Origin: Escherichia phage JLBYU28
Reading direction: 5' to 3' (one strand)
Sequence record: OK272472.1
Length of the DNA stretch: 64,000 nucleotides
Notes under the pieces: generated by a model
Databases searched by the model: none
Told to the model about the DNA's origin: nothing
Seen by the model: only the letters and a program-made list of their open reading frames with translations
Made by a program: the position numbers and the translations under genes
Shown here: piece by piece, positions 36,401 to 64,000 of the stretch
Numbering within the stretch: position 1 is the first letter of the stretch
Layout of the letters: each line of letters starts with the position of its first letter

Positions 36401-36408
36401 TCTCTCTT

Positions 36409-37152: not shown

Positions 37153-37203
37153 TTTAACTCCCTTAATTACTAAAAAGCCCCCAACTAAGGAGGCTTGTAA
37201 AAT

Positions 37204-38013: not shown

Positions 38014-38014
38014 A

Positions 38015-40837: not shown

Positions 40838-41105
40838 CAGTGGCGCATGTAAAACGTTGTGAATTGCTGGAAGCCTAAGTCTGTAAAGATATGGTAATCA
40901 GCAGCGAAGCCTCTTAAGAGGAACGTTCAGAGACTATCGAAAAGCATACTTAATGTATGAACTGAGTAGAGTAGGGTGGTAAGCTAATGACCATTCCCAA
41001 GTGCAACGGTAGTATTACTACTACGTGATATAGTCCGACACTCCGTAGAAATGCGGAGAAGTTCATAAGAGAACTGGTACACCTTGCGAGTGTATTGACC
41101 AGATG
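40838..41105 (+). other. group I intron (268 nt) in DNA polymerase motif B
   Basis: 7-bp P1 between exon end UAUGCGU (40831-40837) and intron GCGCAUG (40843-40849) with U-G at the splice site; GACUA/UAGUC P7 candidates; terminal G at 41105; splicing restores AKNGIYALLFGAGDEK. Confidence 0.7.
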
Positions 41106-41662: not shown

Positions 41663-41665
41663 TTA

Positions 41666-42199
41666 ATGGATTTTATTTCACAAAAACGTTTAAAGGAGCT
41701 ACTACACTATGACCCCGAAACAGGGGTCTTTACTTGGCTTCGTAGAGAAGGTAAATCAAGAGCTGTTAGTGTTTTTAACAGTAACTATGCAGGAAAGGTA
41801 GCAGGTAATGTTCAGACAGATTCAACTGGTCATAAACAGATTAGTATCTATTTTGACAAGAAAGCACATAAAGCACACAGACTCGCATGGCTTTATGTAT
41901 ATGGCAAGATGCCAAAAGGTATCATTGACCATATCAACGGAGACTCTCTTGACAACAGGATTGTAAACTTAAGGGAAGCAGATGATTTTCAAAGTGCTTG
42001 GAATAAAGGTAAACCAGTCACCAATAAATCTGGGTACAAAGGTGTAAGTCTTAAGAAGAAGTCTGGTAAGTGGGTCGCACAGATAAGTTATAAAGGTAAG
42101 AAGATGTTTTTAGGTCACCATGACACGCCTGAAGAAGCCCATAAAGATTACTGTGAAGCTGCTATGAAACTCCACGGAGAGTTTGCAAAACTAAGTTGA
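41666..42199 (+). CDS. HNH homing endonuclease with AP2 DNA-binding domain
   Basis: HNH block IDHINGDSLDNRIVNLREA; AP2-like GYKGVSLKKKSGKWVAQISYKGKKMFLGHHDTPEEAHKDY. Confidence 0.8.
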   Translation: MDFISQKRLKELLHYDPETGVFTWLRREGKSRAVSVFNSNYAGKVAGNVQTDSTGHKQISIYFDKKAHKAHRLAWLYVYGKMPKGIIDHINGDSLDNRIVNLREADDFQSAWNKGKPVTNKSGYKGVSLKKKSGKWVAQISYKGKKMFLGHHDTPEEAHKDYCEAAMKLHGEFAKLS

Positions 42200-42250
42200 C
42201 AAGGTGCTCAGGGAAGAGTACCTTATACTACATCTTGTATAGGAGGGCTT

Positions 42251-42460
42251 ATGAGCCACCGTGGAAGAACCCATGCAGCGATGATGAAAGGTGCTTCAAA
42301 GGAAACTATCAAGAATCGTAAGCAGAAGTTGTTTGAGAGAATGAACAGGTTAATTGACAATTCATCTCTTTCAGGTTCTGAGAAGGTTTTCTTGAAAGGT
42401 AATCTGAAAAGTATTGCACAAGAACTTATTGACATTGAATATTGGAGACATCAAAAATGA
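42251..42460 (+). CDS. hypothetical small protein (69 aa)
   Basis: ORF in track. Confidence 0.45.
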   Translation: MSHRGRTHAAMMKGASKETIKNRKQKLFERMNRLIDNSSLSGSEKVFLKGNLKSIAQELIDIEYWRHQK

Positions 42461-42675
42461 CACTTGCAGACGTTATTCAGCAACTTCACGACAATTGCTA
42501 TACTCCAGAGTTGATTCAGGAGATGTCCATTGTAGTGATGCCTAGTAAGTTCTTAAAAGGTTTTAATCGTGAGGCTTTAAGGTCTGCGCATATCCTTATT
42601 GTTGAAGGGAAGATTGCAAAAGACCGTACCGGAGTCCTTAAGGGTGAACGTATTGATATTGACTTAGCTTTTTAA
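42442..42675 (+). CDS. hypothetical small protein (77 aa)
   Basis: ORF in track. Confidence 0.45.
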   Translation: METSKMTLADVIQQLHDNCYTPELIQEMSIVVMPSKFLKGFNREALRSAHILIVEGKIAKDRTGVLKGERIDIDLAF

Positions 42676-42684
42676 GGGAAAACT

Positions 42685-42891
42685 ATGGAAGTCTTAGTAA
42701 ACTATATCTATTGTTATGATGTTGTTCACTCCACTACAACCGTAGCTCAACGTAACCCAATCGTCCCACGAGAAGGTGAGTTTGTTCGCATTGATGGTTG
42801 TACTTACACTGTGGAAAGCATCATTCATAAGTTTGATGTTGCTGGTGATGTTCAAGTTATCGACGTAGAGATTGGTGGTAAGAGAAAATGA
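42685..42891 (+). CDS. hypothetical small protein (68 aa)
   Basis: ORF in track. Confidence 0.45.
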   Translation: MEVLVNYIYCYDVVHSTTTVAQRNPIVPREGEFVRIDGCTYTVESIIHKFDVAGDVQVIDVEIGGKRK

Positions 42892-43991
42892 CAATTCTGT
42901 ACAAACAAAATAAAGATGGTTCCTTCAACGTCTGGTCATGTGTCGCTATAGGTAACAAAGTTATCACAACCTATGGTAAAGAAAATGGCAAGATGATGTT
43001 TGAAGAGTATACAGCAGAACCTAAAAACATTGGTAAAAAGAATGAGCGTAACGCTGAACAGCAAGCTCTCTTTGAAGTTGCTGCAAAGTATAAAAAGCAG
43101 GTTGACCGCAAAGGTTATGCTTACACAAAAGAGTCTGCACAGAATACTGAGAAAGTAGGTGTACAGCTTGCTCATGATGCTGCAAAGGTTAGCCATGCAA
43201 AGTATCTGAAGTTCCCTGCTGATGCTCAACCGAAGCTTGATGGTGTACGTTGTAGAATTTCAAGACACTTAAGCATTGGTAGCGTATTCACAGCATACTC
43301 TCGTGAGAATACTGTTTATAAAATCCCTACTGAACTCATACCTGACATTATGGCAATGTTAAGGCTCCACAAAGATGTTGATGAGTTTGATGGAGAGATT
43401 TATGCTCATGGGTGGGACTTAGAAGATATCGTCTCTATGATTAAAAATGAAGACAATCCTGACAGACACTCACTTAAGTTCTACTGGTATGATATCTGTG
43501 ACAGCACTAAGACGTGGCCTGAGCGTAGAGATATCATTGAGACCTCACCATTGAATGACTTTAGAGATGGCTGTAAAGTTGTCCCTGTTAAGTCTCGTCG
43601 TGTAAATTCTTGGGAAGAGTTTGATGAAGCCCATGATAAGTGGGTTGAAGCTAAGTTTGAAGGTGCAATGTACCGTTCAATCTCTGAAGACTCCTTCTAT
43701 GAGTGTTGTCACCGTTCATACTTCTTGATTAAGCACAAGAAGATGCACACTGAAGAGTTTAAAGTGACTGGTGTAAAGACCGATAAACGTGGTCATGGCA
43801 AGTTCGTTGTAGAGACTCTTCCTAACGTCTTTGTAGATGTCTCATGGAAGACTACTCATGAGAAGAAACAGTATCTTGCTGAACATCCTGAAGAGTTTAT
43901 CGGGAAACCTTTAACTGTTCAGTTCCAGAAGATGACTCGTAAGGGTTCTTTACAGTTTCCTGTCGGGCTAGTTATTAGGGATTATGAGTAA
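42888..43991 (+). CDS. ATP-dependent DNA ligase
   Basis: Adenylation motif I KLDGVR (PKLDGVRCRI); ~370 aa. Confidence 0.7.
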   Translation: MTILYKQNKDGSFNVWSCVAIGNKVITTYGKENGKMMFEEYTAEPKNIGKKNERNAEQQALFEVAAKYKKQVDRKGYAYTKESAQNTEKVGVQLAHDAAKVSHAKYLKFPADAQPKLDGVRCRISRHLSIGSVFTAYSRENTVYKIPTELIPDIMAMLRLHKDVDEFDGEIYAHGWDLEDIVSMIKNEDNPDRHSLKFYWYDICDSTKTWPERRDIIETSPLNDFRDGCKVVPVKSRRVNSWEEFDEAHDKWVEAKFEGAMYRSISEDSFYECCHRSYFLIKHKKMHTEEFKVTGVKTDKRGHGKFVVETLPNVFVDVSWKTTHEKKQYLAEHPEEFIGKPLTVQFQKMTRKGSLQFPVGLVIRDYE

Positions 43992-43994
43992 ACT

Positions 43995-44141
43995 ATGTTA
44001 AGCACAATCATTCTGTTTGCATTAGTTGTCTTTGTATTGTCATACGTTGCAAGTAAGCTTTTGGACACATCTTTTGCAATGGGTGTCTTGTTTACAATCT
44101 TTTGTTTCGTGACACATATAGCTATCAGAACTTTTTTATAA
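43995..44141 (+). CDS. small hydrophobic membrane protein (48 aa; below track threshold)
   Basis: Hand translation MLSTIILFALVVFVLSYVASKLLDTSFAMGVLFTIFCFVTHIAIRTFL. Confidence 0.35.
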   Translation: MLSTIILFALVVFVLSYVASKLLDTSFAMGVLFTIFCFVTHIAIRTFL

Positions 44142-44146
44142 AAAGT

Positions 44147-44175
44147 TGTTGACATAGAAAATTTGGTGAGTATAC
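44147..44175 (+). promoter_or_regulatory. sigma70-like promoter TTGACA-N16-TATACT
   Basis: Exact -35 consensus and 5/6 -10 match; followed by ~200 nt ORF-free structured sequence. Confidence 0.5.
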
Positions 44176-44429
44176 TGAGCAGCATAAACCAACTGGTACT
44201 CACCAGCATCACTTAAGAGTCTTCTAAGAGGGTTTTTAAGTGATGTCTAGTCAGGTACAGTACGGCTAGGTTGGGTCTGGTAAGGTCAGGTATGGTTTGG
44301 TATGGAAGGATGGCAGTAGCCTTATAAAAAATCTGCCAAATAAGCTATAAAGTCTGTTGACAAGTCAGGTGTTATAGCTTATTTTTATACCCAATGTAAT
44401 ACAAAATTTAATATAACTTTGAGGTCATT

Positions 44430-44813
44430 ATGAAAAAGATTTTATTAGCTGCTGCAATGGTTATGGCAATGAATTTACCAGTCAATGCAACAGAACTTCC
44501 AAATGTGGACTTATCAGGTGTTCCAGAAGACACTTGCCAGATTGTAAAAGGTGTTGCTCTGGCTAATGGTGAGTTACTTAAACCAATCTCTGAAGAGTCT
44601 TTGACAGAGATGACCGATAAGGTGACTGACTATCAGTATCGTGTTCTTGCAGAGTATTTCCTACAATCTGCAAATATTAAAGAGAAACACCATGATGATA
44701 TTGATGTACAGGCTATGCTCAACCATCGTATCCAGTTTAAAGAAGATTTGATGCAAAAAGCTATGTACGGTGTTGAATATTTCTTAGAAAACAGAAGCTG
44801 CACAGGTATTTGA
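44430..44813 (+). CDS. secreted protein with signal peptide (127 aa)
   Basis: N-terminus MKKILLAAAMVMAMNLPVNA. Confidence 0.55.
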   Translation: MKKILLAAAMVMAMNLPVNATELPNVDLSGVPEDTCQIVKGVALANGELLKPISEESLTEMTDKVTDYQYRVLAEYFLQSANIKEKHHDDIDVQAMLNHRIQFKEDLMQKAMYGVEYFLENRSCTGI

Positions 44814-44814
44814 T

Positions 44815-45027
44815 ATGGCTCTTAAAAAGTTACATCCCAGAAGCGGTTATGGTAAGATAATTGACGATACAGACGGCTTTACAGTCTTTACAGTTATCTG
44901 TCAAGATGATTCACAGATTGAAAAGGCTCTTGATGATTATCTTAATGATGAACGCGAAAAGGTTAGGACTACAAACATAGATTCATTGATTGACACTTCA
45001 CGCAAACTGAAGAAGAAAGATGAATGA
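44815..45027 (+). CDS. hypothetical small protein (70 aa)
   Basis: ORF in track. Confidence 0.45.
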   Translation: MALKKLHPRSGYGKIIDDTDGFTVFTVICQDDSQIEKALDDYLNDEREKVRTTNIDSLIDTSRKLKKKDE

Positions 45028-45319
45028 GGTTTTTGACCCTTATGCTCCACAAGATGATTGGGAGGCTGACAGAGAGGCTGGAATGGAGAGTTATATTTGT
45101 CCAATGGATGTAGACGAAATGAGAGACTTCGTTGCACATCGTTTTAAGAGAGAGATTAAATCCAGAGGTCTTTCTCAAGAGCAAGTTGCTAAAATTTGTG
45201 GTATATCTCAGGCTCGTGTATCCAACATAATCCACCTCACTGGTAATGTTTCCCTTGAGTATATGTTGGGAGTGTGTGAAAAATTTGGTGTTAATTTCAA
45301 TTTAAGGTTGGCAGATTAA
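45020..45319 (+). CDS. XRE-family helix-turn-helix DNA-binding protein
   Basis: HTH block LSQEQVAKICGISQARVSNI. Confidence 0.6.
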   Translation: MNEVFDPYAPQDDWEADREAGMESYICPMDVDEMRDFVAHRFKREIKSRGLSQEQVAKICGISQARVSNIIHLTGNVSLEYMLGVCEKFGVNFNLRLAD

Positions 45320-45320
45320 T

Positions 45321-45680
45321 ATGAAACGTGAAAACATTATCCACTTTGAAAACTTCGCATTAGGTTTTTATGGCGTACCTACTCACCTTGAGAAGTATTA
45401 TGGTGTTAAGATTCTTTCCAATCTCATTATGGCTTACAAAGATGGTAAGATTAAGCATACTGAGAAGAAACGTGTCATGGGTTATATGGCTGTAGGTTCA
45501 GCAATCTCAAACATTAAGCTAGAAACAACTAGCAGTCAGGTTGTGAAAGACCACTTCATCAAAGAGCTTTACCACAATCTAGATGGTGTAGATGTTCAGG
45601 CTGTTTGGCTGGATGTTGATGGTCACAATTACACAAGTTTCGTTTTCAAAAACGATGACATTAAGTGTCTGTTCCCATAA
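45321..45680 (+). CDS. hypothetical protein (119 aa)
   Basis: ORF in track. Confidence 0.45.
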   Translation: MKRENIIHFENFALGFYGVPTHLEKYYGVKILSNLIMAYKDGKIKHTEKKRVMGYMAVGSAISNIKLETTSSQVVKDHFIKELYHNLDGVDVQAVWLDVDGHNYTSFVFKNDDIKCLFP

Positions 45681-45693
45681 TAGGTGATGAACT

Positions 45694-46209
45694 ATGATTG
45701 ATATCTTCTTACAAGATGCTCATGCAGATTTCCTTAAAGTGATGCTTAAAAAGTTTATGGCTTCACAGTATGAGAATGAAGCATCTTTTAAAATAGTTAC
45801 ATGTGGCGACGAAGCTGGTTTTGTTGAGATTGAACATGAAGGTACTGGAAAGACTGTTTGTAAGCTACCTGATAGTATGTTCTCTAGCACGTTCTTAACA
45901 AAGACTAGTATAAATGTTAAGCTTGTACCTCAGATTGAAACATACTCTGGTACAGATTACCCTAAAGGGTTTAAGTCACTGATGAAGTACTTCTTAGATG
46001 ACTTTGTGGGTAATCTTCTGAGGGAGGTAAAAGAAAGTCGTACAGTGTTGACTGTAGAGAACATGGGAGGAACTATCAGGGTCACTTCTGACTGTTTTGT
46101 TATGAGCCTCTTCGACTTCGTTCCTAAGAACTTTGATGGTATTCTGGATGAAGAAGATGACTGTGTAGATTTTATATTGGTTCTTGAGCCAGTTTTTGAG
46201 GTTAAATAA
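45694..46209 (+). CDS. hypothetical protein (171 aa)
   Basis: ORF in track. Confidence 0.45.
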   Translation: MIDIFLQDAHADFLKVMLKKFMASQYENEASFKIVTCGDEAGFVEIEHEGTGKTVCKLPDSMFSSTFLTKTSINVKLVPQIETYSGTDYPKGFKSLMKYFLDDFVGNLLREVKESRTVLTVENMGGTIRVTSDCFVMSLFDFVPKNFDGILDEEDDCVDFILVLEPVFEVK

Positions 46210-46470
46210 ATGAAAATTGAACACTGCTATGAGTCTGATGGAACACCTATCCGATGTCCACATTGTGGGTGTACAGACTTACAAGGCGAGGTAAGTGAAA
46301 TAGTCAACGGTCATATTGCTGAAGAGAGTACAAGGTGTACAGGATGTAATGAAGTCATTGCTTTCTGGGCTTATGGTGCATACCAACCTACACCACACTT
46401 AATCTACCATAGCAATAAAGCTGTGAAGAGTGTTATCAACTGGTTCATTAAGAAAGGATTTACAAAATGA
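46210..46470 (+). CDS. zinc-ribbon protein (86 aa)
   Basis: CPHCGC ... CTGCNEV. Confidence 0.5.
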   Translation: MKIEHCYESDGTPIRCPHCGCTDLQGEVSEIVNGHIAEESTRCTGCNEVIAFWAYGAYQPTPHLIYHSNKAVKSVINWFIKKGFTK

Positions 46471-47012
46471 TTAAATTAATCTTTGCAAGTGGTGAAAATG
46501 GGGAGTTTGGTACTCCAACTGGTATGCCGTGGCCTCGACACAAACAGGACATGCAAGAGTTTAAGAGACTCACTAAAAACAACTTAGTAGTGATGGGTAA
46601 CGAGACTTTTAAGACTCTGGGTAGTAAACCTTTACCAGAACGTGCAAACCTTATCTTAACAAACTCTATACCATATTTAGGCATAGACTTTGACAAAGAT
46701 GAGATAATGTATGCTAAGGCCACTAAAGAGTCATTTGGAGCATTTTTGAAGTATCTTGATAGCTCTATTGATGAAGATGTCTTTGTAATTGGTGGTGCAG
46801 GTGTCCTTGTCAATGCTTTACCATATGCTGATGTAGTGTTCCATACAGTTTTCCATAAAGTTACTGAAGAAGCCACTGTGTATTTACCTTTTGAAAACTT
46901 CTTCGATAAACTGTATGATAGTCGTGTATTTGCAAAGGTACAGTCAAGGCCATCGGATGATGGTAAAGCAACCTTTGAAATTTATGTTCCACAAGTAAAA
47001 GGACACTTTTGA
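46467..47012 (+). CDS. frd: dihydrofolate reductase
   Basis: N-terminal IFA...GMPW and VVMGNETFKTLG...PLPERANLILT blocks match DHFR; directly upstream of thymidylate synthase. Confidence 0.85.
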   Translation: MIKLIFASGENGEFGTPTGMPWPRHKQDMQEFKRLTKNNLVVMGNETFKTLGSKPLPERANLILTNSIPYLGIDFDKDEIMYAKATKESFGAFLKYLDSSIDEDVFVIGGAGVLVNALPYADVVFHTVFHKVTEEATVYLPFENFFDKLYDSRVFAKVQSRPSDDGKATFEIYVPQVKGHF

Positions 47013-47013
47013 T

Positions 47014-47913
47014 ATGTCACAAGCAGATTTGAGTTACAAAAATATCCTTAAACATGTTTTATCCGTTGGTGAACTGCGTACTACACGAACTGGAGATGTT
47101 ATCTCTGCATTTGCTCCACCACAGTTTCGTTTTGATATGCGTACTGGTTTCCCACTCTTAACATCTAAACAGGTGTTTACACGGCAAGTTATTGGGGAAG
47201 CTTTATGGTTCCTGAATGGCGAGAATAAACTTGGCGAACTCCGTTACCGTACTTGGGGTGAAAATGATGGGGAACGCTGGACTATCTGGTCAGATGATTT
47301 TAAACGTTGGTTAAGTTCTAACTATTCTTCTGAACAAGATTGGTTAGAAGATGCAGGTGGGAGAATCTATGGGGTTCAGTGGAGAAACTTTGAAGGTCAT
47401 AATGGTTGTGTTGTAGACCAGTTAGAGACCTTAGTAACAAAGATGAAGGGTGATATCACAGACCGTTACATGCTTGTTAATGCTTGGAATGCAGCAGATA
47501 TTGCAGCAAACTCAATGGCTTTAGCACCTTGTCATGTTCTGTTTCAGATTTATATCACTAACGAAGGTGAAGTTGACTTGCAATGGTATCAGCGCTCTGT
47601 AGACACATTTTTAGGACTCCCGTTTAACATTGCATCTTACGGTTTTATTCTGGAAGTGCTTTGCAAGATGACTGGATACACTCCACGGTACTTGATAGGT
47701 GTCTTTGGAGATACTCAAATTTATCAGAACCATATGAAGCAGGTTTATGAGCTGATGAATAATGAAGAGTTCCATGCACCTACTTTTGAGATTGGTGTAC
47801 AGCTTAACACTCTAAGTGACCTTAAACATCTTACTGCAAGTGATTTTATTGGTGGCATTTACAACTACCAACATGCAGGAAAGATTGAAGCACCTTTGTC
47901 AGTAGGTAAGTAA
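47014..47913 (+). CDS. td: thymidylate synthase
   Basis: Conserved blocks TRTGD, ALAPCH (catalytic Cys), QWYQRSVD, GLPFNIASYG. Confidence 0.9.
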   Translation: MSQADLSYKNILKHVLSVGELRTTRTGDVISAFAPPQFRFDMRTGFPLLTSKQVFTRQVIGEALWFLNGENKLGELRYRTWGENDGERWTIWSDDFKRWLSSNYSSEQDWLEDAGGRIYGVQWRNFEGHNGCVVDQLETLVTKMKGDITDRYMLVNAWNAADIAANSMALAPCHVLFQIYITNEGEVDLQWYQRSVDTFLGLPFNIASYGFILEVLCKMTGYTPRYLIGVFGDTQIYQNHMKQVYELMNNEEFHAPTFEIGVQLNTLSDLKHLTASDFIGGIYNYQHAGKIEAPLSVGK

Positions 47914-47919
47914 AAACAA

Positions 47920-47950
47920 AAAAGGCTCCCGTAAAAAGGAGCCTTAAAAT
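47920..47950. terminator. bidirectional rho-independent terminator between convergent blocks
   Basis: GGCTCC-CGTAAAAA-GGAGCC hairpin (47924-47943) flanked by T-runs on both strands. Confidence 0.7.
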
Positions 47951-47951
47951 T

Positions 47952-48323
47952 TTATTTTTCAGTATTCTTTGTGTTCTTTTCAGTAATAGCTTGGAGGGCT
48001 GATACTGATTGAGCCAGATTATTAACACTATCAGAGAATTTATCAAGAGTCTTAGTAAGTTTTGCGTTTTCCCCTTTAACGTTCTCTAACTGAACTTTCT
48101 GGTTCTCCATCCCTAACTGAAGCAGTCTCATATCAGACTGCAAATCACGAATAGCTGAGTAATTAGATTTACTATAATTATCTAGCTGCTGTAATTTTGT
48201 TGTGACAGACACTTCTTGCTTACCACTTGAAACTTGCATAGTGGTATACATCCCAATAACACTAAAAATACCAACAACAATTGCACCAATATTATTTTTA
48301 AAAGCTTCCTCTAGCCACTTCAT
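47952..48323 (-). CDS. membrane-anchored coiled-coil protein (123 aa)
   Basis: N-terminal TM segment IGAIVVGIFSVIGMY then heptad-like region. Confidence 0.45.
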   Translation of the reverse strand: MKWLEEAFKNNIGAIVVGIFSVIGMYTTMQVSSGKQEVSVTTKLQQLDNYSKSNYSAIRDLQSDMRLLQLGMENQKVQLENVKGENAKLTKTLDKFSDSVNNLAQSVSALQAITEKNTKNTEK

Positions 48324-48518
48324 TTATTTCTCCCCCTTAAAAGCTTTCTCTAAGTTATCTACGAACTCATCATCAATAGGTGTGTCTGTTTTACTCGCAA
48401 GGTATCTTGCAAGCTTAAAGAACACTTTCTCAATCATGTATTCACTCAGCAGGGATAAAATGAGTTTCCAGAAGAAACTACCTAGATTTTTTAGAAGAAT
48501 TGCTAGGATTGTAGGCAT
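48324..48518 (-). CDS. small membrane protein (64 aa)
   Basis: Hydrophobic N-terminal half. Confidence 0.4.
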   Translation of the reverse strand: MPTILAILLKNLGSFFWKLILSLLSEYMIEKVFFKLARYLASKTDTPIDDEFVDNLEKAFKGEK

Positions 48519-48597
48519 TTAATCACCTCATCAGCCAAGATGGTGAGAATACCCATAAAGAATATTAACACCATCTTAACAATCAGTCAACAAGGGA

Positions 48598-51123
48598 TTA
48601 AGCAGTTCTCACCCAAGCCATTAACTTATAGAACTGGTTAGTTACGCTAAATGCTGAACCAGAACCTGTACCTCCAGTGTTACCACTCACTGTATGGCTG
48701 TGAGCACCAATACCAACAGTGTGAGCATGGTTTCCGTTAGAGGCAGCAGTACCAGACACAGTGTGTGAGTGATTCCCAGCAGCTCCTGACGTGCCATTAA
48801 ACGATGGGTTGTCAAAGCCTGTTTTACCGGTTTCACTGTTCGTTCTGGCATTACCCCTGTAAATGGTATGTGTATGGTTACCTGTTGTGTTCGTTGAACC
48901 ACTCACTGAGTGGGTGTGAGCACCAGTAGTGTTAGTGGTTTTAGTTCCATAGTCAAAGCTAGAGGTTGTTGCAGAGAAACTATGAGTGTGTGAAGGTAAG
49001 TTTCCAACTGCTAACGTAACAGAATCCGACCCACCAGTGGTAGCAACATCTGAACCATTTGCTGCTGCAATTCTGATAGTTCTACCAACACCATTGTTCA
49101 GGTACGTCCAAGTTAATCCAGGAAGTGCGGTATTAGGGTTAACATTACTGTTAAACCACGTTACGATACCTACTGGATAGATTTTATTCAGGTCTGTAGA
49201 GTCACTTACTGCCTGTGCAATCTTCTGGTCAGTTTCTGCTTTAGTGTATGCACCGATATCTGAAGGGGTTGGTTTTTGCATATTTGTGTAGTATTTTGCA
49301 ATTGTACCCTTTACAATACCTTGCGGAGCGTCATCAAATGTTTGTGGTACTCCAAACAACTGCACACCTGCATTACTAGTATATTGGACTCTTGATGTTG
49401 TACCATTCTGGAACGCACCGACCTTACAGTAAATATCATAAGTGTCTCCAGAAGTATTCACAGAGCCGATATCCGTAATAATGGGATTCTTCGAGTTTTT
49501 CCAAGCAACAATATTTAAACCCTTTGGGCTCCCATTCCCCGTTCTGAGAACAATTTCCGTTTTACAAGCTTGGTCAAGTACACCATAGTTAAAGCCTGAC
49601 CCACCAAACACTTCAATCACCGCAGTAGATGCGGATTGCGGCATTACAACAGTAGCAATTTTAGCCCACTTTTCATCGTCTCCATTATTGAAGTTAGTAC
49701 TTCCGATTCTCAGGTATCTACTATCACTAGCACTTTGAGTAAAGTATCTAGCATCTAAGTTAGAGAAATCTGAAGGTTGAATCTGCCCTGCTAGGGTTAA
49801 TGTCTTATTGATACTTGCAGTTGAGTTACCTAAAATTAACTGAGTGCCAGAGAAGCTGTTGTTTAAGGCTACATCAGTAGAATTTGGGCCACCAACACCT
49901 ACCCACCATCTTGATGCATTGGCAGCGTCCTTACCACGAATATACAATGGCCTACTCTGAGTAGAGTTTTTAATAACTAAACCTTCGCCATCACTAACAA
50001 CTGTTTGCGCACCATTAAAAGTATTTTGTGTATTAGTTCTTGCAATCGTACTTAATGTTGCTGCCGGAATATATCTAGAGTCAATGTTAGAGAAATCTGA
50101 GGGTTGAACCTGCCCAGTGATTTGCACGGTTTTATTGATACCAATAGTTGTACCTAGTGAAACCCGCGAACCTGTAAGGTAGTTATAAATGTTTAGACGT
50201 GTATCTTCAGAATCTGTACCAACATACCATTTATTTGTTCCATCAGACTTCTTACCGAGAATGTAAAGTGGTGTACTTGCATCAGTATTCTGCAAAGTAA
50301 GAGCATTAGCGTTCTTCTTAACAACAAGGTTAGTGAAAGTATTAGCACCTGTAAAAGTGTTATCCCCAGCTAACTGTGCAAATCTCTGATTAGCAACTGT
50401 CTGAGTAAAGTATCTATCATCTAAGTTAGAGAAATCAGAAGGTTGGACTTGACCAGTGATTACTAAAGATTTATTAACAGAAATATTACTTGCAACAGTC
50501 AAGGCTGAGTCGTATTTGTTGTTATACAGGTTTACTGTATCACCGCCATTGCGACCAATACCGACCCACCATCTAGCCGAACCATCTAGGTCTACACCTT
50601 CAATATATTGTGCATTATTTGCATTTTGGTTTCTAAGGCGAAGTAAGTTAGCATCACCTTGAATTTGCTGAGTCCCAGAGAATGTGTTTGTGACAGCAAG
50701 TCTTGCATATCTTGCGTCATTCTCTTCATTAGTTCTCATACCAAGCTCATTAGGACTTGGCTTATTCAGAGTATGATAGACAGTTGCAGACCTTGAAGCA
50801 TCTGCAATAGTTAGTTTAAGACCATTTGCATTAATTTTAAAAGTCTTTAAAACATCCCCCATAGTAATCTCAGAAGAGCCTGTAGGGTCAAAGACTGCCT
50901 TACCACCATAAAGTAACTTAACAATCCCTAAGTCACCAGTCATAGTACTACCAGCAATCTGAACAAATCTTTCAAGCTTAAAAGATGCTAAGAAATCTTG
51001 ATAGGTCATTCGACGGTCTTCATCACCCAGCATTTCAGGTCTCTTTTTAACCCTGACATGAAGAAGGTCATCTGAACGGATTGTATCGATTGAGTTTAAT
51101 TCACTCAACTTGTAATCTGCCAT
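48598..51123 (-). CDS. long tail fibre protein with three internal ~100-aa repeats and C-terminal His-box (HTH/HSH) region
   Basis: QPSDFSN(L/I)D(S/A)RY(F/I) seen three times; C-terminus GAHTHSVSGSTNTTGNHTH ... HSHTVSG. Confidence 0.7.
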   Translation of the reverse strand: MADYKLSELNSIDTIRSDDLLHVRVKKRPEMLGDEDRRMTYQDFLASFKLERFVQIAGSTMTGDLGIVKLLYGGKAVFDPTGSSEITMGDVLKTFKINANGLKLTIADASRSATVYHTLNKPSPNELGMRTNEENDARYARLAVTNTFSGTQQIQGDANLLRLRNQNANNAQYIEGVDLDGSARWWVGIGRNGGDTVNLYNNKYDSALTVASNISVNKSLVITGQVQPSDFSNLDDRYFTQTVANQRFAQLAGDNTFTGANTFTNLVVKKNANALTLQNTDASTPLYILGKKSDGTNKWYVGTDSEDTRLNIYNYLTGSRVSLGTTIGINKTVQITGQVQPSDFSNIDSRYIPAATLSTIARTNTQNTFNGAQTVVSDGEGLVIKNSTQSRPLYIRGKDAANASRWWVGVGGPNSTDVALNNSFSGTQLILGNSTASINKTLTLAGQIQPSDFSNLDARYFTQSASDSRYLRIGSTNFNNGDDEKWAKIATVVMPQSASTAVIEVFGGSGFNYGVLDQACKTEIVLRTGNGSPKGLNIVAWKNSKNPIITDIGSVNTSGDTYDIYCKVGAFQNGTTSRVQYTSNAGVQLFGVPQTFDDAPQGIVKGTIAKYYTNMQKPTPSDIGAYTKAETDQKIAQAVSDSTDLNKIYPVGIVTWFNSNVNPNTALPGLTWTYLNNGVGRTIRIAAANGSDVATTGGSDSVTLAVGNLPSHTHSFSATTSSFDYGTKTTNTTGAHTHSVSGSTNTTGNHTHTIYRGNARTNSETGKTGFDNPSFNGTSGAAGNHSHTVSGTAASNGNHAHTVGIGAHSHTVSGNTGGTGSGSAFSVTNQFYKLMAWVRTA

Positions 51124-51173
51124 TATTTTTGTCCTCTAGAAAGAGGGCTATACAGCCCCCTGTAAAAGAATTT

Positions 51174-52343
51174 TTAAGCGGTTCTTTGCCATACATAAAC
51201 TACAAAAGATGGTTGCTCAACACTAAATGCTTGACCAGCACCAGTAGCACCAGTAGTACCTGAATGGGTGTGTTCTCCAGCTCCAGTAACACTAACCGTT
51301 ACATTGTGTGAATGCGCTCCGATAGCAACAGTGTGTGAGTGTGAACCAATAGCCACCGTGTGATTATGGTTACCATTGGATGCAGCAGTACCACTAATGG
51401 AGTGAGAGTGGTTACCAGCACTATCTGTCTGAACGGTATTCCTGTGCCCATCCCTATCCCAGTCACCTGACGCACCAGTAGCTTGGTAACCAGTGACATA
51501 GCCATGTGTGTGAGCACCTGTTGTATTTGTTGAACCACTCACTGAGTGGGTGTGAGCACCAGTAGTGTTTGTGGTCTTAGTACCGTAATCAAATGATGAG
51601 GTTGATTTAGTACCATAATCAAACGTACTAACTGAGACATTTGCACCATGATTATGATTTCCACCTGCTAGGTAGATAGAATGACTGTGCGATGGTAAGT
51701 TGTTGCTAGATAAGCTAATACTACTTGAGCCAAAGTTACTACCAACTGGCCTAGAAGCACTATCATAACCTACAAGTGCTCTTCCTCTTGAAACTAACTC
51801 CCAAGTACCTCCACAAATTAAATATGTAGAGGGGTTTGCAGGATTCATAGAGAGATGGATAGTACCTACTGGATAAGAAGCCTGAACAGCCTTGTACAAG
51901 TTATTTACTGCTCTTGCTGTAGCATACTTATCTGCATCTTCATTATAAAGGTTAGACGTTGTCCAGTTCTGGACATTACTTAAACCAACCTGTGCCTTAG
52001 TTGTATTGTGTGGGTTGCTCTTGTCATTAATATGCTGCTGAATAAGGCTATTAACCTCTTCTGAAGACATAATCTGTAGATTTGCTCTTGCCTCAGCTAC
52101 ATTAACAATATCTGATAAGTTATTTGCAGCAACTAACTGAAGAGCATTGATAACGTTATCTAAACCAATTTGTGTTTTAGTAACACCGTGGGGGTTATTT
52201 CTTAGGCTTGAGTGTGGAGCAAGTAATTGCTCAAGAGTACATCTCTTATCCTCAATACCCTGCTTAAGATGGAAGATATCACTAAGGTCAATTGGTAAGG
52301 CTGCTTGAGGCAAGGCACTAATTTGAATTTCACCTACTGCCAT
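51174..52343 (-). CDS. second tail fibre / receptor-binding protein with His-box region
   Basis: Shares the FDYGTKTTNTTGAHTHSVSGSTNTTG block and similar C-terminus with the 841-aa fibre. Confidence 0.65.
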   Translation of the reverse strand: MAVGEIQISALPQAALPIDLSDIFHLKQGIEDKRCTLEQLLAPHSSLRNNPHGVTKTQIGLDNVINALQLVAANNLSDIVNVAEARANLQIMSSEEVNSLIQQHINDKSNPHNTTKAQVGLSNVQNWTTSNLYNEDADKYATARAVNNLYKAVQASYPVGTIHLSMNPANPSTYLICGGTWELVSRGRALVGYDSASRPVGSNFGSSSISLSSNNLPSHSHSIYLAGGNHNHGANVSVSTFDYGTKSTSSFDYGTKTTNTTGAHTHSVSGSTNTTGAHTHGYVTGYQATGASGDWDRDGHRNTVQTDSAGNHSHSISGTAASNGNHNHTVAIGSHSHTVAIGAHSHNVTVSVTGAGEHTHSGTTGATGAGQAFSVEQPSFVVYVWQRTA

Positions 52344-52345
52344 TA

Positions 52346-60364
<8,019 letters not shown>

Positions 60365-60365
<1 letters not shown>

Positions 60366-60604
60366 TACATTTTTCCTGCTCTTCTAAGTTCGTTGTAAGC
60401 AATTTCCTCTTTATACGACCTCTGAATTTCAAGAAATTGTCTCAATGATAATAAATCAGAGAATGTCATAGCAAAGAGTTGGTCAAGTGTTTCTTTACAC
60501 CCTTCCATACCATAAATAGCAAGCACAAATTTCATCTCGTCTGCTTCTTCATAGGTTGCCTCTACAGCAGCATCAGTTAGTGGTGTCTGTAGAGTGTTAC
60601 CCAT
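60365..60604 (-). CDS. tail assembly chaperone, frameshift extension ORF (T-like)
   Basis: In -1 frame relative to upstream ORF; -1 frame open back through slippery site 60643-60649. Confidence 0.5.
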
Positions 60605-60606
60605 GT

Positions 60607-61005
60607 TTACTGAGAAGTTAGGCTTTTGAAAATGCTTGCTTCGAAAAAACTTCCGAAGTTTGCCTCCAGCGCAAATGCTAAGTAATCAATAAATTCACCA
60701 TAGTTTGCTTGGAAGTATGTATCGATATTAAGTGGGAAGTCGTCAACAGTTGCCCCTTGAAATAACAGGGTAGCCATTTCTTCAAGGTTAATTTCTTCAA
60801 TTCTGTCAAAACAAGCTTCAACAAGCTCTTTAAATGGAACCATTGGAGCTTCTTTCTTGCCCTTGTCAGTCAGACTTGATAGCATCTGTGCAAAGGTTGG
60901 AACAACAATTTTACCCAACTTCATAGACATCTTAATACCATCTCTTGCCCCAAGCAGAACGATATTTACTTTCTTACCATTAATTACTCTAAATTCTGTT
61001 TTCAT
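60607..61005 (-). CDS. tail assembly chaperone (G-like)
   Basis: Between tube and tape measure genes; contains slippery heptamer T_TTT_TTC. Confidence 0.55.
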   Translation of the reverse strand: MKTEFRVINGKKVNIVLLGARDGIKMSMKLGKIVVPTFAQMLSSLTDKGKKEAPMVPFKELVEACFDRIEEINLEEMATLLFQGATVDDFPLNIDTYFQANYGEFIDYLAFALEANFGSFFEASIFKSLTSQ

Positions 61006-61037
61006 TGTGATTCCTTAATACTTTTAAAAGAAACAAA

Positions 61038-61068
61038 AAAGGGGAAGACCTTTTAAAGTCTCCCCCTT
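61038..61068 (-). terminator. rho-independent terminator after tail tube gene
   Basis: Minus-strand GGGGGAGAC-TTTAAAAG-GTCTTCCCC followed by TTTTTT. Confidence 0.6.
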
Positions 61069-61078
61069 ATAGGATTTA

Positions 61079-61525
61079 TTAAACACTTGACGCTGGAATT
61101 GTAGAAGTGTAATCTAGCTTCTCACAACCAAAAATCCAAGTTTTAGAGTTCTGGTCACGACCAAGTTCAATCTGTGGTAACTCCTGCAACCAAGCGTTAA
61201 TACCAGTTGCCAGAACAGAGCCTGATGGGTCGTAGATTACGAAGTTAGAAGAGATATCTTCTTCAAGTTCCATATTGTCTTGTTTAGCTTGAATTGCAGA
61301 AAGCATCTGGTTAGAGAGAGAAGTCTGCATTAACTCAATCTCAATAGTACCTGTCTTGTCTGCATTTCTTGTCAGAGCAACCTGACCACCCGCACCAACA
61401 ACTGGTGTCACAAGTGGTGATGTTCTCTGTAGACGCAAGAATGAGTCTGGGGCAAAGCCTTCAATGGCAATACCATTCCAGCTACATACAACGTCTTTAG
61501 GGGAATATTGCTGATACATAGCCAT
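61079..61525 (-). CDS. tail tube protein
   Basis: 148 aa directly downstream of sheath gene. Confidence 0.55.
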   Translation of the reverse strand: MAMYQQYSPKDVVCSWNGIAIEGFAPDSFLRLQRTSPLVTPVVGAGGQVALTRNADKTGTIEIELMQTSLSNQMLSAIQAKQDNMELEEDISSNFVIYDPSGSVLATGINAWLQELPQIELGRDQNSKTWIFGCEKLDYTSTIPASSV

Positions 61526-61540
61526 TCCAATTTACCTCTA

Positions 61541-62893
61541 TTATTCGTAAGCCACTGTACCTTTCAAGTCAACATCCAAGATAGCCCCTGCTAAGATACC
61601 TGCAAAGGTAACATCTTTCAGGATACGTGCTTTCTTGTCTGCCAAAGCAACTTGAGAGGCTTTAGGAACATTAACTGTGTAAGATGACAGGAAGTTTCTG
61701 TTGACTGCTCTTTGCAGAGAGGTTTCAATGACTTGACGAATACGGGTAATACCAGTATCATCATAAGTAATCTTACCACCCTTCTGATTAATTAGCAAGT
61801 CTCTCAGAGAAGTTTTCAGGTCTGATTCTAACCAGTCAACACCACGGACGATATCAATCCATTCCCCACCAGAAGTAATCCCTCTACGAACCACTGGAAC
61901 ACCACCATCAAGGTCAATAAAGTTACAGTGACGTGCATCTAAAGCAGACTTCTGAATACTTGTCAGAGGTCTCTGATTAGATGGTTGTAGAGAAGCTGCT
62001 ACACCAGTTAGCTGAGCATTACCCCAAGCAATTGAGCCTGCATCATATGGAGCACCATAAGCAATGTATGCCATCTCTGGATAATCTTCTGCTGCTGCGT
62101 GATGCCACAAGCAAACTGTACGAGTGTACATATTCTTAGCAAGCTGTGCTGGAACATCATTTGCACTGGCTAATTCTGTACCTTGTAGGGCTGTTACATC
62201 AGAGTTAGCAGTGAAGAAGATTTTCTTACGAGCTTGAATCTCAGAAGCCATTGCTAAGACAAACTGTTGAGTTCTGTCTTCTGCTGCAATGAAATACCAG
62301 TCAGTTGAATAAGCTTCAATAGCTGCCAGAGCAGTTGATGCTGTATCAGCAGTTGTACTTGCAATATATACAGTCTGTGCTGTAGTTGTTACTTTCACAA
62401 AGTCATTATTACCAGCTTTGGTAATAATCATTGTGGCAGAAGCACCACTACCAGTTACGTTCACAGAAACCTTATCTTTGATTGTTGGGTCAGCTTCAAT
62501 CTGTGTTTTAAACTGTTGCAACACTACTTCAGCAGTGTCTGAGCTTTGTGCTGTATACTGGAATGGTTGAGAGATTCCACCACCAACAGCTACAGTAATT
62601 GAGTAGTCTGTGCTTTCAGTAACGGCATCAGGGATTGATACAGTGTACTGCATAGCACGTCTACCAATATAAAGCTGAGTTACTTTAGGAGTCTGACTCC
62701 AAAGTTGTTTAGCAGCCTTATATGCAGCAGACCTCTCATCGAAATCTTCAGCAACTTCAGTTAAGGAGGTGTAGCCACGTACTCTTTCTTCAAAGTTATC
62801 TGTTGAAGCTAAGAATAGTGGTAAACCAAAACCTTCTCTTGTAGTTCCTGCGGTGTTCAATGTAATATCTACATTAACAATTGGATTCCACAT
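61541..62893 (-). CDS. contractile tail sheath protein
   Basis: 450 aa immediately upstream of tube gene. Confidence 0.6.
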   Translation of the reverse strand: MWNPIVNVDITLNTAGTTREGFGLPLFLASTDNFEERVRGYTSLTEVAEDFDERSAAYKAAKQLWSQTPKVTQLYIGRRAMQYTVSIPDAVTESTDYSITVAVGGGISQPFQYTAQSSDTAEVVLQQFKTQIEADPTIKDKVSVNVTGSGASATMIITKAGNNDFVKVTTTAQTVYIASTTADTASTALAAIEAYSTDWYFIAAEDRTQQFVLAMASEIQARKKIFFTANSDVTALQGTELASANDVPAQLAKNMYTRTVCLWHHAAAEDYPEMAYIAYGAPYDAGSIAWGNAQLTGVAASLQPSNQRPLTSIQKSALDARHCNFIDLDGGVPVVRRGITSGGEWIDIVRGVDWLESDLKTSLRDLLINQKGGKITYDDTGITRIRQVIETSLQRAVNRNFLSSYTVNVPKASQVALADKKARILKDVTFAGILAGAILDVDLKGTVAYE

Positions 62894-63493
62894 TTATTTT
62901 ACCCCTTTGGAGTCTACATCTAGATGGATAGTATATTCTGGTGTCTCTTGTCCTTCTTCGTAAACCAACTCACCATCAACAATGACACGCTCAATAATAC
63001 TTCCACGTTCATCTTTCAGGACTGAGTTTTTTACAAGAGTTACAACAAGAGGTGCAGAATTTTCGAAATCTGTATTGAGATAAGTATAGTCATTCGGGAT
63101 AGCTCCAGTGTCTAGTACTGTGGCTCCTGTCTCTTCAAGGATTAAATCTCTGACTGAACTCATCTCTAATCGTTGTTTAAGCTCAAGCATAATACTATGA
63201 GCACCTTTACCATTTACCGTAATTAATACAGGAATCTGAAAAGCAATTCTGTAACAAACTACATCATCCTCAACAAACTTATCAAGAACCCAACCATAAG
63301 GTGTTGCAGCATCTTGACAATATACGGTAATAAATGGCTGGTCAGGTTTTAAACCTTTGTCATTTGAGTTATCAGAAGGGTAAGCTCTAATTACGTTTGG
63401 CCTATTATTTTTATCACGAGCTAGTCTGTGACCAATAACATCCACTAAGGTTCTAACTAGACCTTTTTCAAGTTCTGCTGTTTCTAACTGCAT
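62894..63493 (-). CDS. tail completion / neck-proximal protein (199 aa)
   Basis: Position upstream of sheath. Confidence 0.35.
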   Translation of the reverse strand: MQLETAELEKGLVRTLVDVIGHRLARDKNNRPNVIRAYPSDNSNDKGLKPDQPFITVYCQDAATPYGWVLDKFVEDDVVCYRIAFQIPVLITVNGKGAHSIMLELKQRLEMSSVRDLILEETGATVLDTGAIPNDYTYLNTDFENSAPLVVTLVKNSVLKDERGSIIERVIVDGELVYEEGQETPEYTIHLDVDSKGVK

Positions 63494-63869
63494 TCATTTT
63501 ATCCCTTCTAATAATGATATATTCATAATGGGACGTATGGACTAATTGCTGTGACCAATCCATAGTCATAAATACTTCATACTCATGACCATCAATCATA
63601 ACAATATCAGACTCATTCCACTCTACATCATCTGAAGTTCTAAGTTTATATGTGGTATACAGGATTCTTGTATCGGTAAGCCTGATACCTTCCGGTAAAG
63701 CAATCTGTGTACCATTCTTTACAGAACCTTTGATATATGGCTGGATATTACCTTTACAGTTAACCTCCACAATATCTTGTGAAGCTACCCAATCACCATC
63801 ATCGTTATAATAACCGTCTTCAGAGACTTTACGCTTTACTACAAAGCTGTGTCTGTTTAAGAGTCTCAT
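63468..63869 (-). CDS. tail completion / head-tail joining protein (133 aa)
   Basis: Position. Confidence 0.35.
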   Translation of the reverse strand: MRLLNRHSFVVKRKVSEDGYYNDDGDWVASQDIVEVNCKGNIQPYIKGSVKNGTQIALPEGIRLTDTRILYTTYKLRTSDDVEWNESDIVMIDGHEYEVFMTMDWSQQLVHTSHYEYIIIRRDKMNAVRNSRT

Positions 63870-64000
63870 TTCTTAATACCCTTCTTAGTAGAAATTTTAT
63901 AAGCAAGGTTATCCCTTAAGTCGCCTGTCTCAACAAGAGGTGCGTTAAAGCCTTTTTTCTTGACTGTGGAAGGTGCGTTAGGAGGGAGGATAGCAGAATT
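63866..64000 (-). CDS. 3' end of a minus-strand gene truncated by the window edge
   Basis: Open frame from 64000 down to TGA overlapping the next ATG (ATGA overlap at 63866-63869). Confidence 0.45.
   Translation of the reverse strand, partial: NSAILPPNAPSTVKKKGFNAPLVETGDLRDNLAYKISTKKGIKK

What the first reader, a model, noticed from the sequence alone, without database searches (positions are those of the whole stretch)
60365..61005. Programmed -1 ribosomal frameshift signal in the tail assembly chaperone pair
The 132-aa ORF contains the slippery heptamer U_UUU_UUC (minus strand, 60649 down to 60643) in the correct X_XXY_YYZ phase about 12 codons before its stop. The -1 frame is open from there into the downstream 79-aa ORF, so a -1 shift would give a G-T-like fusion just upstream of the tape measure gene.
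Basis: partly seen in the sequence, partly recalled or inferred. Interest (0 to 1): 0.5.

Follow-up and report, generated by a model that had tools for sequence, protein, structure and literature searches.

The report
Felix O1-type tail chaperone frameshift site
The window is a Felix O1-like phage, and the flagged site is the usual "G/GT" ribosomal slip that makes a second, longer tail assembly chaperone just upstream of the tape measure gene; it is real and strongly conserved, but it is already annotated in close relatives, so it is ordinary.

Summary
Observation confirmed. On the minus strand, a 132-aa ORF (61005..60607) carries T_TTT_TTC (60649..60643) in X_XXY_YYZ phase. The -1 frame is open from 60685 to the stop at 60367..60365, so a shift gives a 213-aa fusion that ends on the tape measure ATG.

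The window is a Felixounavirus, 96-97% identical to Felix O1, Mushroom and others. The upstream ORF is a Pfam Phage_TAC_15 tail assembly chaperone.

Of 67 in-phase slippery heptamers in the window's ORFs, only this one opens a long -1 frame (92 codons; median 5). The same in-phase T_TTT_TTY recurs in 14 of 15 protein clusters that share less than 60% identity, and in two rV5-like phages. The preceding codon is AGT, TCT, ACT or TGT. The downstream ORF has no Shine-Dalgarno sequence and no conserved start codon.

GenBank already annotates this joined CDS in Salmonella phage Mushroom and Citrobacter phage Mijalis, and genome announcements mention it. It is therefore already known by annotation, although I found no experimental test in this lineage.

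I found no conserved 3' stimulatory structure. A GGAGG lies 13 nt upstream, as in dnaX, and is enriched at synonymous sites across lineages; it is a candidate stimulator. Interest is low.

The parts
60607..61005 (-). G-like tail assembly chaperone ORF (132 aa, zero frame, stop TAA at 60609..60607)
   Evidence: ORF list and translation. Pfam PF21822 Phage_TAC_15, E=1.1e-18, 68.4 bits against a cut-off of 22. PHROG 1613 and 3840, 'tail assembly chaperone'. An AAGGA Shine-Dalgarno sequence lies 6 nt before the ATG.
60643..60649 (-). Slippery heptamer U_UUU_UUC in X_XXY_YYZ phase (codons AGU UUU UUC = S119 F120 F121)
   Evidence: It is the only in-phase TTTTTTC in the window's ORFs and the only heptamer with a long open -1 frame. 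It is conserved in 14 of 15 clusters below 60% identity and in Vequintavirinae. U_UU.U_UU.C is listed among the efficient E. coli motifs in PMC4066793.
60365..60685 (-). Open -1 frame (T-like part). It overlaps the last 76 nt of G, contains the annotated 79-aa ORF 60604..60365, and its stop TAA 60367..60365 shares its last A with the tape measure ATG.
   Evidence: PHROG 4963 'tail assembly chaperone', E=2.8e-55. Protein-level homology to the -1 ORF of Erwinia phages by tblastn, as a second piece in a different frame.
60365..61005 (-). Predicted GT-like fusion CDS, complement(join(60365..60643,60643..61005)), 213 aa
   Evidence: The span is 641 nt, the same as the joined 'tape measure chaperone' CDS of phage Mushroom (CPT_Mushroom69, AJF40599.1) and the analogous CDS of phage Mijalis.
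60663..60667 (-). Internal Shine-Dalgarno-like GGAGG, 13 nt 5' of the heptamer (candidate 5' stimulator; inferred, not shown)
   Evidence: Duplex energy with the anti-SD is -9.3 kcal/mol, in the top 0.9% of random positions of this strand. 8 of 14 clusters carry an SD-like element of -7 kcal/mol or stronger at 10-13 nt, against 1.5 expected from synonymous resampling. It is also present at 13 nt in phage Av-05. The spacing range for -1 stimulation is 9-14 nt according to PMC5009743.
60602..60604 (-). ATG that opens the annotated 79-aa ORF; probably not used as a start
   Evidence: No Shine-Dalgarno sequence upstream (CTTCTCAGTAAAC ATG). It is ATA in IMG/VR locus L018, displaced in the Mooglevirus and Suspvirus representatives, and absent in Kolesnikvirus, where the first Met lies deep in the conserved domain.
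58134..60365 (-). Tape measure protein gene (743 aa), immediately downstream
   Evidence: Pfam PF20155 TMP_3, E=1.6e-16. PHROG 4036, full length.
61029..61068 (-). Strong intrinsic-terminator-like hairpin plus T-run between the tube-like gene and the chaperone gene
   Evidence: 13-bp stem and T-run; -19.7 kcal/mol. A terminator is annotated at the same place in phage Mijalis.
61079..61525 (-). 148-aa virion structural protein in the tail tube position
   Evidence: Pfam PF11681 and PHROG 280. It lies directly after the sheath gene 61541..62893 (PHROG 205, tail sheath).

Best explanation
This is the programmed -1 ribosomal frameshift of the tail assembly chaperone pair of a Felix O1-like myophage.

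Most ribosomes translate the 132-aa G-like chaperone and stop at 60607. A minority have tRNA-Phe on UUU (P site) and UUC (A site), slip back one base on U_UUU_UUC (60649..60643), and continue in the -1 frame to 60365. That yields a 213-aa G-T-like fusion with the same N-terminal 121 residues and a new 92-residue C-terminal part.

By analogy with lambda G/GT, both proteins coat the tape measure protein encoded next. The T part recruits the tube protein, and neither protein remains in the virion.

Shown here: the sequence geometry, the family membership, deep conservation of the site at codon level, and the lack of an independent start for the T frame. Inferred: that slippage occurs, its efficiency, the assembly role, and stimulation by the GGAGG 13 nt upstream.
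For: - Geometry and phase.
- Uniqueness in the window (1 of 67 heptamers opens a long -1 frame).
- The window is a Felixounavirus.
- Family assignment: Pfam Phage_TAC_15 and PHROG TAC families for both parts, and TMP_3 for the next gene.
- The in-phase T_TTT_TTC sits at the homologous NF(G/S)SFF motif in Suspvirus, Mooglevirus, Kolesnikvirus (about 42% identity) and Arno162.
- It is present in 48 of 49 IMG/VR loci down to 25-35% identity. These include loci that cannot have been picked by the pattern covering the site, because they carry SFFT or TFFI.
- 14 of 15 clusters read NNT TTT TTY. Background TTT among Phe codons is 0.475 and third-position T is 0.31.
- The codon before the run is AGT, TCT, ACT or TGT, so it always ends in T.
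- The same site occurs in Vequintavirinae phages CR3 and Av-05.
- The T-frame ATG has no Shine-Dalgarno sequence and is not conserved.
- Joined CDS already exist in GenBank for Mushroom and Mijalis, and two papers mention the frameshift.
- The motif is efficient in E. coli.
- An SD-like element lies at a spacing that is stimulatory for -1 shifts.
Against: - No experiment on this lineage was found. The evidence is comparative.
- There is no conserved 3' stimulatory structure. The immediate downstream fold has z = -0.78, and the alifold consensus is -0.61 kcal/mol with no covarying pair.
- The SD-like element is missing in 6 of 14 clusters, including the Erwinia phages, so it cannot be essential.
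- The clusters are not phylogenetically independent, so the quoted P value is optimistic.
- RefSeq Felix O1 and many other records annotate two separate CDS.
- A run of six T could also permit some transcriptional slippage, which would give the same protein.
Confidence: 0.9

Rival explanations
1. The fusion is made by transcriptional slippage. RNA polymerase adds one extra U on the T6 run, and standard translation of that minority mRNA gives the same 213-aa protein.
For: The site is a homopolymer of six T, or seven in some lineages. The natural variant CL1 with seven T encodes exactly the predicted fusion in one frame. A weak hairpin followed by the T-run was flagged by the terminator-like scan.
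Against: The review PMC5009743 describes productive bacterial slippage on runs of about 9 A or T; six is short. The run is kept strictly in X_XXY_YYZ phase in every lineage, and a polymerase would not care about phase. The upstream hairpin shows no covariation above shuffles. One relative (L059) has C_CCT_TTC rather than a homopolymer.
Confidence: 0.05
2. There is no recoding. The 79-aa ORF is translated on its own from ATG 60604, giving two separate chaperone proteins as annotated in RefSeq Felix O1.
For: An ATG exists at 60604, and many records annotate two CDS.
Against: There is no Shine-Dalgarno sequence before that ATG. It is ATA in L018, shifted in the Mooglevirus and Suspvirus representatives, and absent in Kolesnikvirus, where annotators call only a 38-aa remnant or nothing. 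The -1 frame stays open back across the heptamer in all lineages, sometimes starting only 9 nt before it. This reading does not explain the codon-level conservation of the heptamer.
Confidence: 0.04
3. The heptamer is a by-product of a conserved Ser-Phe-Phe motif and has no recoding role.
For: The NF(G/S)SFF motif is conserved at the protein level. Part of the locus search used that motif, which is an ascertainment bias.
Against: Amino-acid conservation does not fix the synonymous positions, yet 14 of 14 clusters with the motif use NNT TTT, against an expectation of about 0.145 per cluster. The residue before Phe-Phe varies (S, T, C) but its codon always ends in T. A long -1 ORF of conserved protein sequence, ending at the tape measure start, always follows.
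Confidence: 0.01

Closest known systems
Joined 'tape measure chaperone' CDS of Felix O1-like phages Mushroom (KP143762, CPT_Mushroom69), Mijalis (KY654690, CPT_Mijalis068) and Moogle
   Same: Same genes, same heptamer at the same ORF index (356 in Mushroom) and the same 641-nt joined span. Mushroom differs from the window at 13 of 641 nt. The frameshift is stated in PMC5543628 and PMC4319497.
   Different: Nothing material. The window is simply another isolate. Those annotations are also predictions by analogy, not experiments.
Phage lambda G/GT programmed -1 frameshift (Levin 1993; Xu, Hendrix and Duda 2004, 2013, 2014, as summarised in PMC5009743)
   Same: Two overlapping ORFs lie between the major tail protein gene and the tape measure gene. 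There is a -1 slip near the end of the first ORF, the longer product shares the N-terminal domain, and the products act as assembly chaperones.
   Different: The slippery sequence differs: lambda uses G_GGA_AAG (from memory), and this phage uses U_UUU_UUC. The host phage here is a contractile-tailed myovirus. No sequence similarity to lambda G was tested. The ratio (about 30:1 in lambda) is unknown here.
Phage P2 E/E' tail chaperone frameshift (Christie et al. 2002; recalled from memory, not checked here)
   Same: A myovirus, with a -1 shift on a U-rich heptamer in the gene pair before the tape measure gene.
   Different: A different protein family and a different last base of the heptamer. 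Not compared with tools.
E. coli dnaX -1 frameshift signal
   Same: A homopolymeric heptamer plus an internal Shine-Dalgarno-like sequence within the 9-14 nt stimulatory range upstream. Here GGAGG lies 13 nt upstream.
   Different: dnaX also has a strong 3' stem-loop and about 50% efficiency. No conserved 3' structure was found here, and the SD-like element is absent in several lineages.

Membership tests
Pfam PF21822 Phage_TAC_15 (phage tail assembly chaperone) | Score above the curated gathering threshold over most of the profile | tested here: met
   68.4 bits against a cut-off of 22, E=1.1e-18, profile positions 1-122 of 127 on residues 9-123.
G/GT-type frameshifted tail assembly chaperone pair (Xu et al. 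2004 definition) | Two overlapping ORFs located between the major tail/tube gene and the tape measure gene | tested here: met
   Gene order is sheath (61541..62893), tube-like (61079..61525), G (60607..61005), T (60365..60685), TMP (58134..60365), all on the minus strand.
G/GT-type frameshifted tail assembly chaperone pair (Xu et al. 2004 definition) | A slippery sequence in the correct phase inside the overlap, leading into the second ORF | tested here: met
   T_TTT_TTC at 60649..60643. The -1 frame is open for 92 codons after it, and it is the only such site in the overlap.
G/GT-type frameshifted tail assembly chaperone pair (Xu et al. 2004 definition) | Conservation of the site and frame arrangement among diverged relatives | tested here: met
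   14 of 15 clusters below 60% identity, plus two Vequintavirinae phages.
G/GT-type frameshifted tail assembly chaperone pair (Xu et al. 2004 definition) | The second ORF lacks its own translation initiation signals | tested here: met
   No Shine-Dalgarno sequence before ATG 60604. The ATG is not conserved, and is absent in Erwinia phages.
G/GT-type frameshifted tail assembly chaperone pair (Xu et al. 2004 definition) | A fusion protein is actually produced at a low fixed ratio and is required for tail assembly | not testable with these tools
   Needs a reporter assay, western blot or mass spectrometry, and phage genetics. No such data were found for Felix O1-like phages.
dnaX-type -1 signal with a 5' Shine-Dalgarno stimulator | An SD-like sequence 9-14 nt upstream of the heptamer | tested here: met
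   GGAGG at 60667..60663 with a 13-nt spacer, -9.3 kcal/mol. Spacing rule from PMC5009743.
dnaX-type -1 signal with a 5' Shine-Dalgarno stimulator | The SD-like element is conserved beyond what the protein sequence requires | tested here: inconclusive
   8 of 14 clusters against 1.5 expected under synonymous resampling, P about 3e-6 if the clusters are independent. It is absent in 6 clusters, and the clusters share ancestry.
dnaX-type -1 signal with a 5' Shine-Dalgarno stimulator | A 3' stem-loop or pseudoknot 5-9 nt after the heptamer | tested here: not met
   z = -0.78 for the 83 nt downstream. No consensus structure or covariation. No Rfam frameshift element: all matches fall far below their gathering scores.

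The most novel reading that the evidence does not exclude
In this chaperone family (Ounavirinae, Vequintavirinae and uncultured relatives), the U_UUU_UUY frameshift is tuned mainly by an internal Shine-Dalgarno-like sequence 10-13 nt upstream. That element is maintained through different amino-acid contexts (LEA gives GGAGG, KE gives AAGGAG, RE gives GGGAG) rather than by any 3' RNA structure. Lineages lacking it (for example the Erwinia Kolesnikvirus phages) would then shift at a lower rate or use another stimulator. This would be a dnaX-like 5'-only stimulator for a phage G/GT site.
Probability: 0.35. Interest if true: 0.3.

Novelty: already known. Interest (0 to 1): 0.12.

Why it matters
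It matters mainly for annotation. Many Felix O1-like records, including RefSeq Felix O1, list two separate 'tail assembly chaperone' CDS or drop the second one. The correct description is one short product plus one frameshifted 213-aa fusion.

The deep codon-level conservation of one heptamer across two myovirus subfamilies is a clean example of the conserved G/GT strategy. The upstream Shine-Dalgarno-like element gives a cheap, testable hypothesis about how the G:GT ratio is set in phages that are used for Salmonella and E. coli typing and biocontrol.

Tried and rejected
1. 3' stimulatory structure. Folding the 83 nt after the heptamer gave z = -0.78. RNAalifold on seven diverged Ounavirinae sequences gave -0.61 kcal/mol with no compensatory pair. 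A local hairpin at 60594..60560 starts about 47 nt downstream, which is too far for a canonical stimulator.

2. Upstream hairpin CUGGAG/CUUCGG, flagged as terminator-like. On 17 representatives, pairing and covariation were no better than shuffles (151/500 and 113/500 shuffles reached the observed values).

3. The 8-bp hairpin that contains the heptamer (CUUCGGAA/UUUCGAAG, -6.4 kcal/mol). Not significant (50/500 and 39/500). It would also be melted inside the ribosome.

4. Rfam scan of 60200..61200 at a permissive E-value: only chance-level matches.

5. PDB sequence search with the fusion: no relative found (best E = 0.61).

6. Literature search for experiments on Felix O1-type frameshifting: only annotation-level mentions.

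Full report
**What is in the sequence**

- ORF 61005..60607 encodes 132 aa.
- TTTTTTC lies at 60649..60643, at ORF index 356. The zero frame therefore reads AG-U UUU UUC (Ser119 Phe120 Phe121), which is the X_XXY_YYZ phase needed for tandem -1 slippage.
- Eleven sense codons and a TAA follow.
- The -1 frame is open from 60685, 36 nt before the heptamer. It runs through the annotated 79-aa ORF (ATG at 60604) to the TAA at 60367..60365. The last A of that stop is the A of the next gene's ATG (TAATG).
- A -1 shift gives a 213-aa protein, ...ANFGSFF|RSKHFQKPNFSVNMGNTLQ....
- The +1 frame is closed.

**Is it more than chance?**

I took 76 non-overlapping long ORFs of the window, 18,203 codons in all.
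- They hold 67 in-phase X_XXY_YYZ heptamers, or 3.7 per 1000 codons. About 0.09 would be expected in the 25-codon overlap.
- After those 67 sites, the -1 frame stays open for a median of 5 codons.
- Only this site exceeds 40 codons (92).
- It is also the only in-phase TTTTTTC.

**Context**

The 5 kb around the site is 96-97% identical to more than 160 Felixounavirus genomes, including Felix O1, Mushroom and heid. All genes below are on the minus strand.

| Coordinates | Gene | Evidence |
|---|---|---|
| 61541..62893 | tail sheath | PHROG 205 |
| 61079..61525 | 148-aa structural protein in the tube position | PF11681, PHROG 280 |
| 61068..61039 | strong terminator-like hairpin, -19.7 kcal/mol | |
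| 60607..61005 | 132-aa ORF | Pfam PF21822 Phage_TAC_15, 68.4 bits against a cut-off of 22 |
| 60365..60685 | -1 ORF | PHROG 4963, tail assembly chaperone |
| 58134..60365 | 743-aa tape measure protein | PF20155; PHROG 4036 over full length |

A terminator is also annotated at the same place in phage Mijalis.

**Comparative evidence**

A tblastn search with the predicted fusion against 50,697 phage records found 326 records.
- In almost all of the listed ones, the match splits into two pieces in different frames.
- I fetched representatives of Suspvirus, Mooglevirus, Kolesnikvirus (about 42% identity) and Arno162, among others.
- In every one (apart from phage CL1, whose T7 run puts the fusion in frame; see Side observations), an in-phase T_TTT_TTC sits in the homologous NF(G/S)SFF motif.
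- In every one of those, the -1 frame opens 9-40 nt upstream and runs to the tape measure start.

A scan of IMG/VR gave 49 further loci down to 25% identity.
- 48 of them have an in-phase T_TTT_TTC or T_TTT_TTT in the overlap, followed by a -1 ORF of 56-91 further codons. The remaining one has C_CCT_TTC.
- One of the two search patterns covered the motif, which creates an ascertainment bias. However, loci with SFFT or TFFI cannot have been selected by that pattern, and they still carry the site.

I then clustered the proteins at 60% identity.
- 14 of 15 clusters read NNT TTT TTY.
- Elsewhere in these genes, TTT is only 47.5% of Phe codons and T is 31% of third positions.
- The codon before the run is AGT, TCT or ACT.

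In the rV5-like phages CR3 and Av-05 (Vequintavirinae, 26-29% identity), the codon before the run is TGT and the geometry is the same. The synonymous positions that make the sequence slippery are therefore under selection.

**The downstream ORF is not expressed on its own**

- The ATG at 60604 has no Shine-Dalgarno sequence, whereas the chaperone ORF has AAGGA.
- That ATG is ATA in IMG/VR locus L018.
- It is displaced in the Mooglevirus and Suspvirus representatives.
- It is absent in Kolesnikvirus, where the first Met lies deep inside the conserved domain. Annotators there call a 38-aa remnant or nothing.

**Mechanism**

The best-supported reading is tandem -1 slippage of tRNA-Phe on U_UUU_UUC.
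- Sharma et al. (PMC4066793) place H_HH.U_UU.Y heptamers among the most efficient motifs in E. coli. They list U_UU.U_UU.C among motifs that shift at more than 0.1% without stimulators, and note that IS elements use it.
- I found no 3' stimulator. The 83 nt downstream fold no better than shuffles (z = -0.78). Seven diverged sequences give no consensus structure or covariation. Rfam finds nothing.
- Two small hairpins that overlap or precede the site show no covariation above controls.

What does stand out is a GGAGG at 60667..60663, 13 nt upstream of the heptamer.
- The Atkins review (PMC5009743) gives 9-14 nt as the stimulatory spacing for -1 shifts, as in dnaX.
- Other lineages have AAGGAG, GGGAG or GGAGGUG at 10-13 nt, encoded by different amino acids.
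- I resampled synonymous codons with each locus's own usage. 8 of 14 clusters have an element of -7 kcal/mol or stronger, against 1.5 expected (P about 3e-6 if the clusters are independent, which they are not fully).
- Six clusters, including the Erwinia phages, lack it. It is therefore a candidate modulator, not a requirement.

**Rival explanations**

- *Transcriptional slippage* on the T-run would give the same protein. However, six T is short compared with the runs of about 9 described for bacteria, and a polymerase would not enforce the codon phase that is invariably kept.
- *Independent initiation of the 79-aa ORF* is contradicted by the missing Shine-Dalgarno sequence and the non-conserved start.
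- *A by-product of the Ser-Phe-Phe motif* is contradicted by the synonymous-site pattern.

**Comparison with what is known, and novelty**

This is the conserved G/GT arrangement described for lambda and many other tailed phages.
- For this very lineage, the joined CDS is already in GenBank: Mushroom CPT_Mushroom69, which has the same 641-nt span, the heptamer at the same index, and 13 nt differences from the window; and Mijalis CPT_Mijalis068.
- The genome announcements for Moogle and Mijalis state that the tape measure chaperone has a translational frameshift.
- RefSeq Felix O1 and many other records still list two separate CDS.
- I found no experimental demonstration for Felix O1-like phages.

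The feature is already known at annotation level and is of low interest. The only mildly new element is the possible dnaX-like upstream Shine-Dalgarno stimulator.

**Side observations**

- Phage CL1 (OK040806) has seven T instead of six, so the whole 213-aa fusion is in frame and is annotated as a single CDS. This is either a homopolymer sequencing error or a GT-only variant.
- The T stop overlaps the tape measure ATG (TAATG).
- A terminator precedes the chaperone gene.
- The best nucleotide match is labelled 'Campylobacter phage A132'.

Noticed in passing
L004 (Escherichia phage CL1, OK040806.1), about 1856-1863; homologous to window 60649..60643: This record has seven T instead of six at the slip site, so the 213-aa G-T fusion is a single in-frame ORF and is annotated as one 'tape measure chaperone' CDS. 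It is either a homopolymer sequencing/assembly error or a natural GT-only variant. The encoded protein equals the predicted frameshift product.
   Followed up: partly
window 61068..61029 (minus strand): A strong intrinsic-terminator-like hairpin (13-bp stem, -19.7 kcal/mol, T-run) lies between the tube-position gene and the chaperone gene. A terminator is also annotated there in phage Mijalis. It would lower transcription of the chaperone and tape measure genes relative to the sheath and tube genes.
   Followed up: partly
window 60365..60369 (minus strand): The stop of the -1 (T) frame overlaps the tape measure start (TAATG), whereas the zero-frame G stop lies 240 nt upstream. Only frameshifted ribosomes terminate at the tape measure start, so tape measure initiation might be partly coupled to GT synthesis. 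A weak AGGAA lies 9 nt upstream.
   Followed up: no
L018 (IMGVR_UViG_3300045988_004167), homologous to window 60604..60602: The ATG that opens the annotated 79-aa ORF is ATA in this otherwise near-identical phage. This is consistent with that ATG not being a functional start.
   Followed up: partly
window 60594..60560 (minus strand): A local 8-bp hairpin (CUCUACAG...CUGUAGAG) lies inside the T coding region, about 47 nt after the heptamer. The Suspvirus and Mooglevirus representatives have a different hairpin (CAGACCCC...GGGGCUG) at the same place. It is too far away for a canonical frameshift stimulator, and its significance is unknown.
   Followed up: partly
window 58000..63000, best hit: The closest nucleotide match (97.4% over 5 kb) is a 70.7-kb unannotated record named 'Campylobacter phage A132' (MG065664.1). 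That is an odd host label for a Felixounavirus sequence and may reflect contamination or mislabelling.
   Followed up: no
L008 (Erwinia phage phiEa104, NC_015292.1) 1..972: The tail sheath is annotated as two adjacent CDS (gp056, gp057), whereas relatives have one gene of about 450 aa. The cause is probably a frameshift error or a pseudogene in that record.
   Followed up: no
window 60631..60628 (minus strand): A second, weaker slip-prone tetramer U_UUC (codons AUU UUC, Ile125 Phe126) lies in phase inside the overlap. A shift there would give a nearly identical fusion.
   Followed up: no
window 1..64000: ARAGORN finds no tRNA gene in the whole 64-kb window, although Felix O1 is reported to carry 22 tRNA genes (PMC5543628). 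The window evidently excludes the tRNA cluster. 64 of the 76 long ORFs are on the minus strand.
   Followed up: no
protein-level: PHROG 3840 matches the predicted fusion over residues 1-151 with a higher score (164 bits) than it gives the unshifted 132-aa protein (148 bits). Some members of that family therefore seem to be deposited as read-through or fused products.
   Followed up: no
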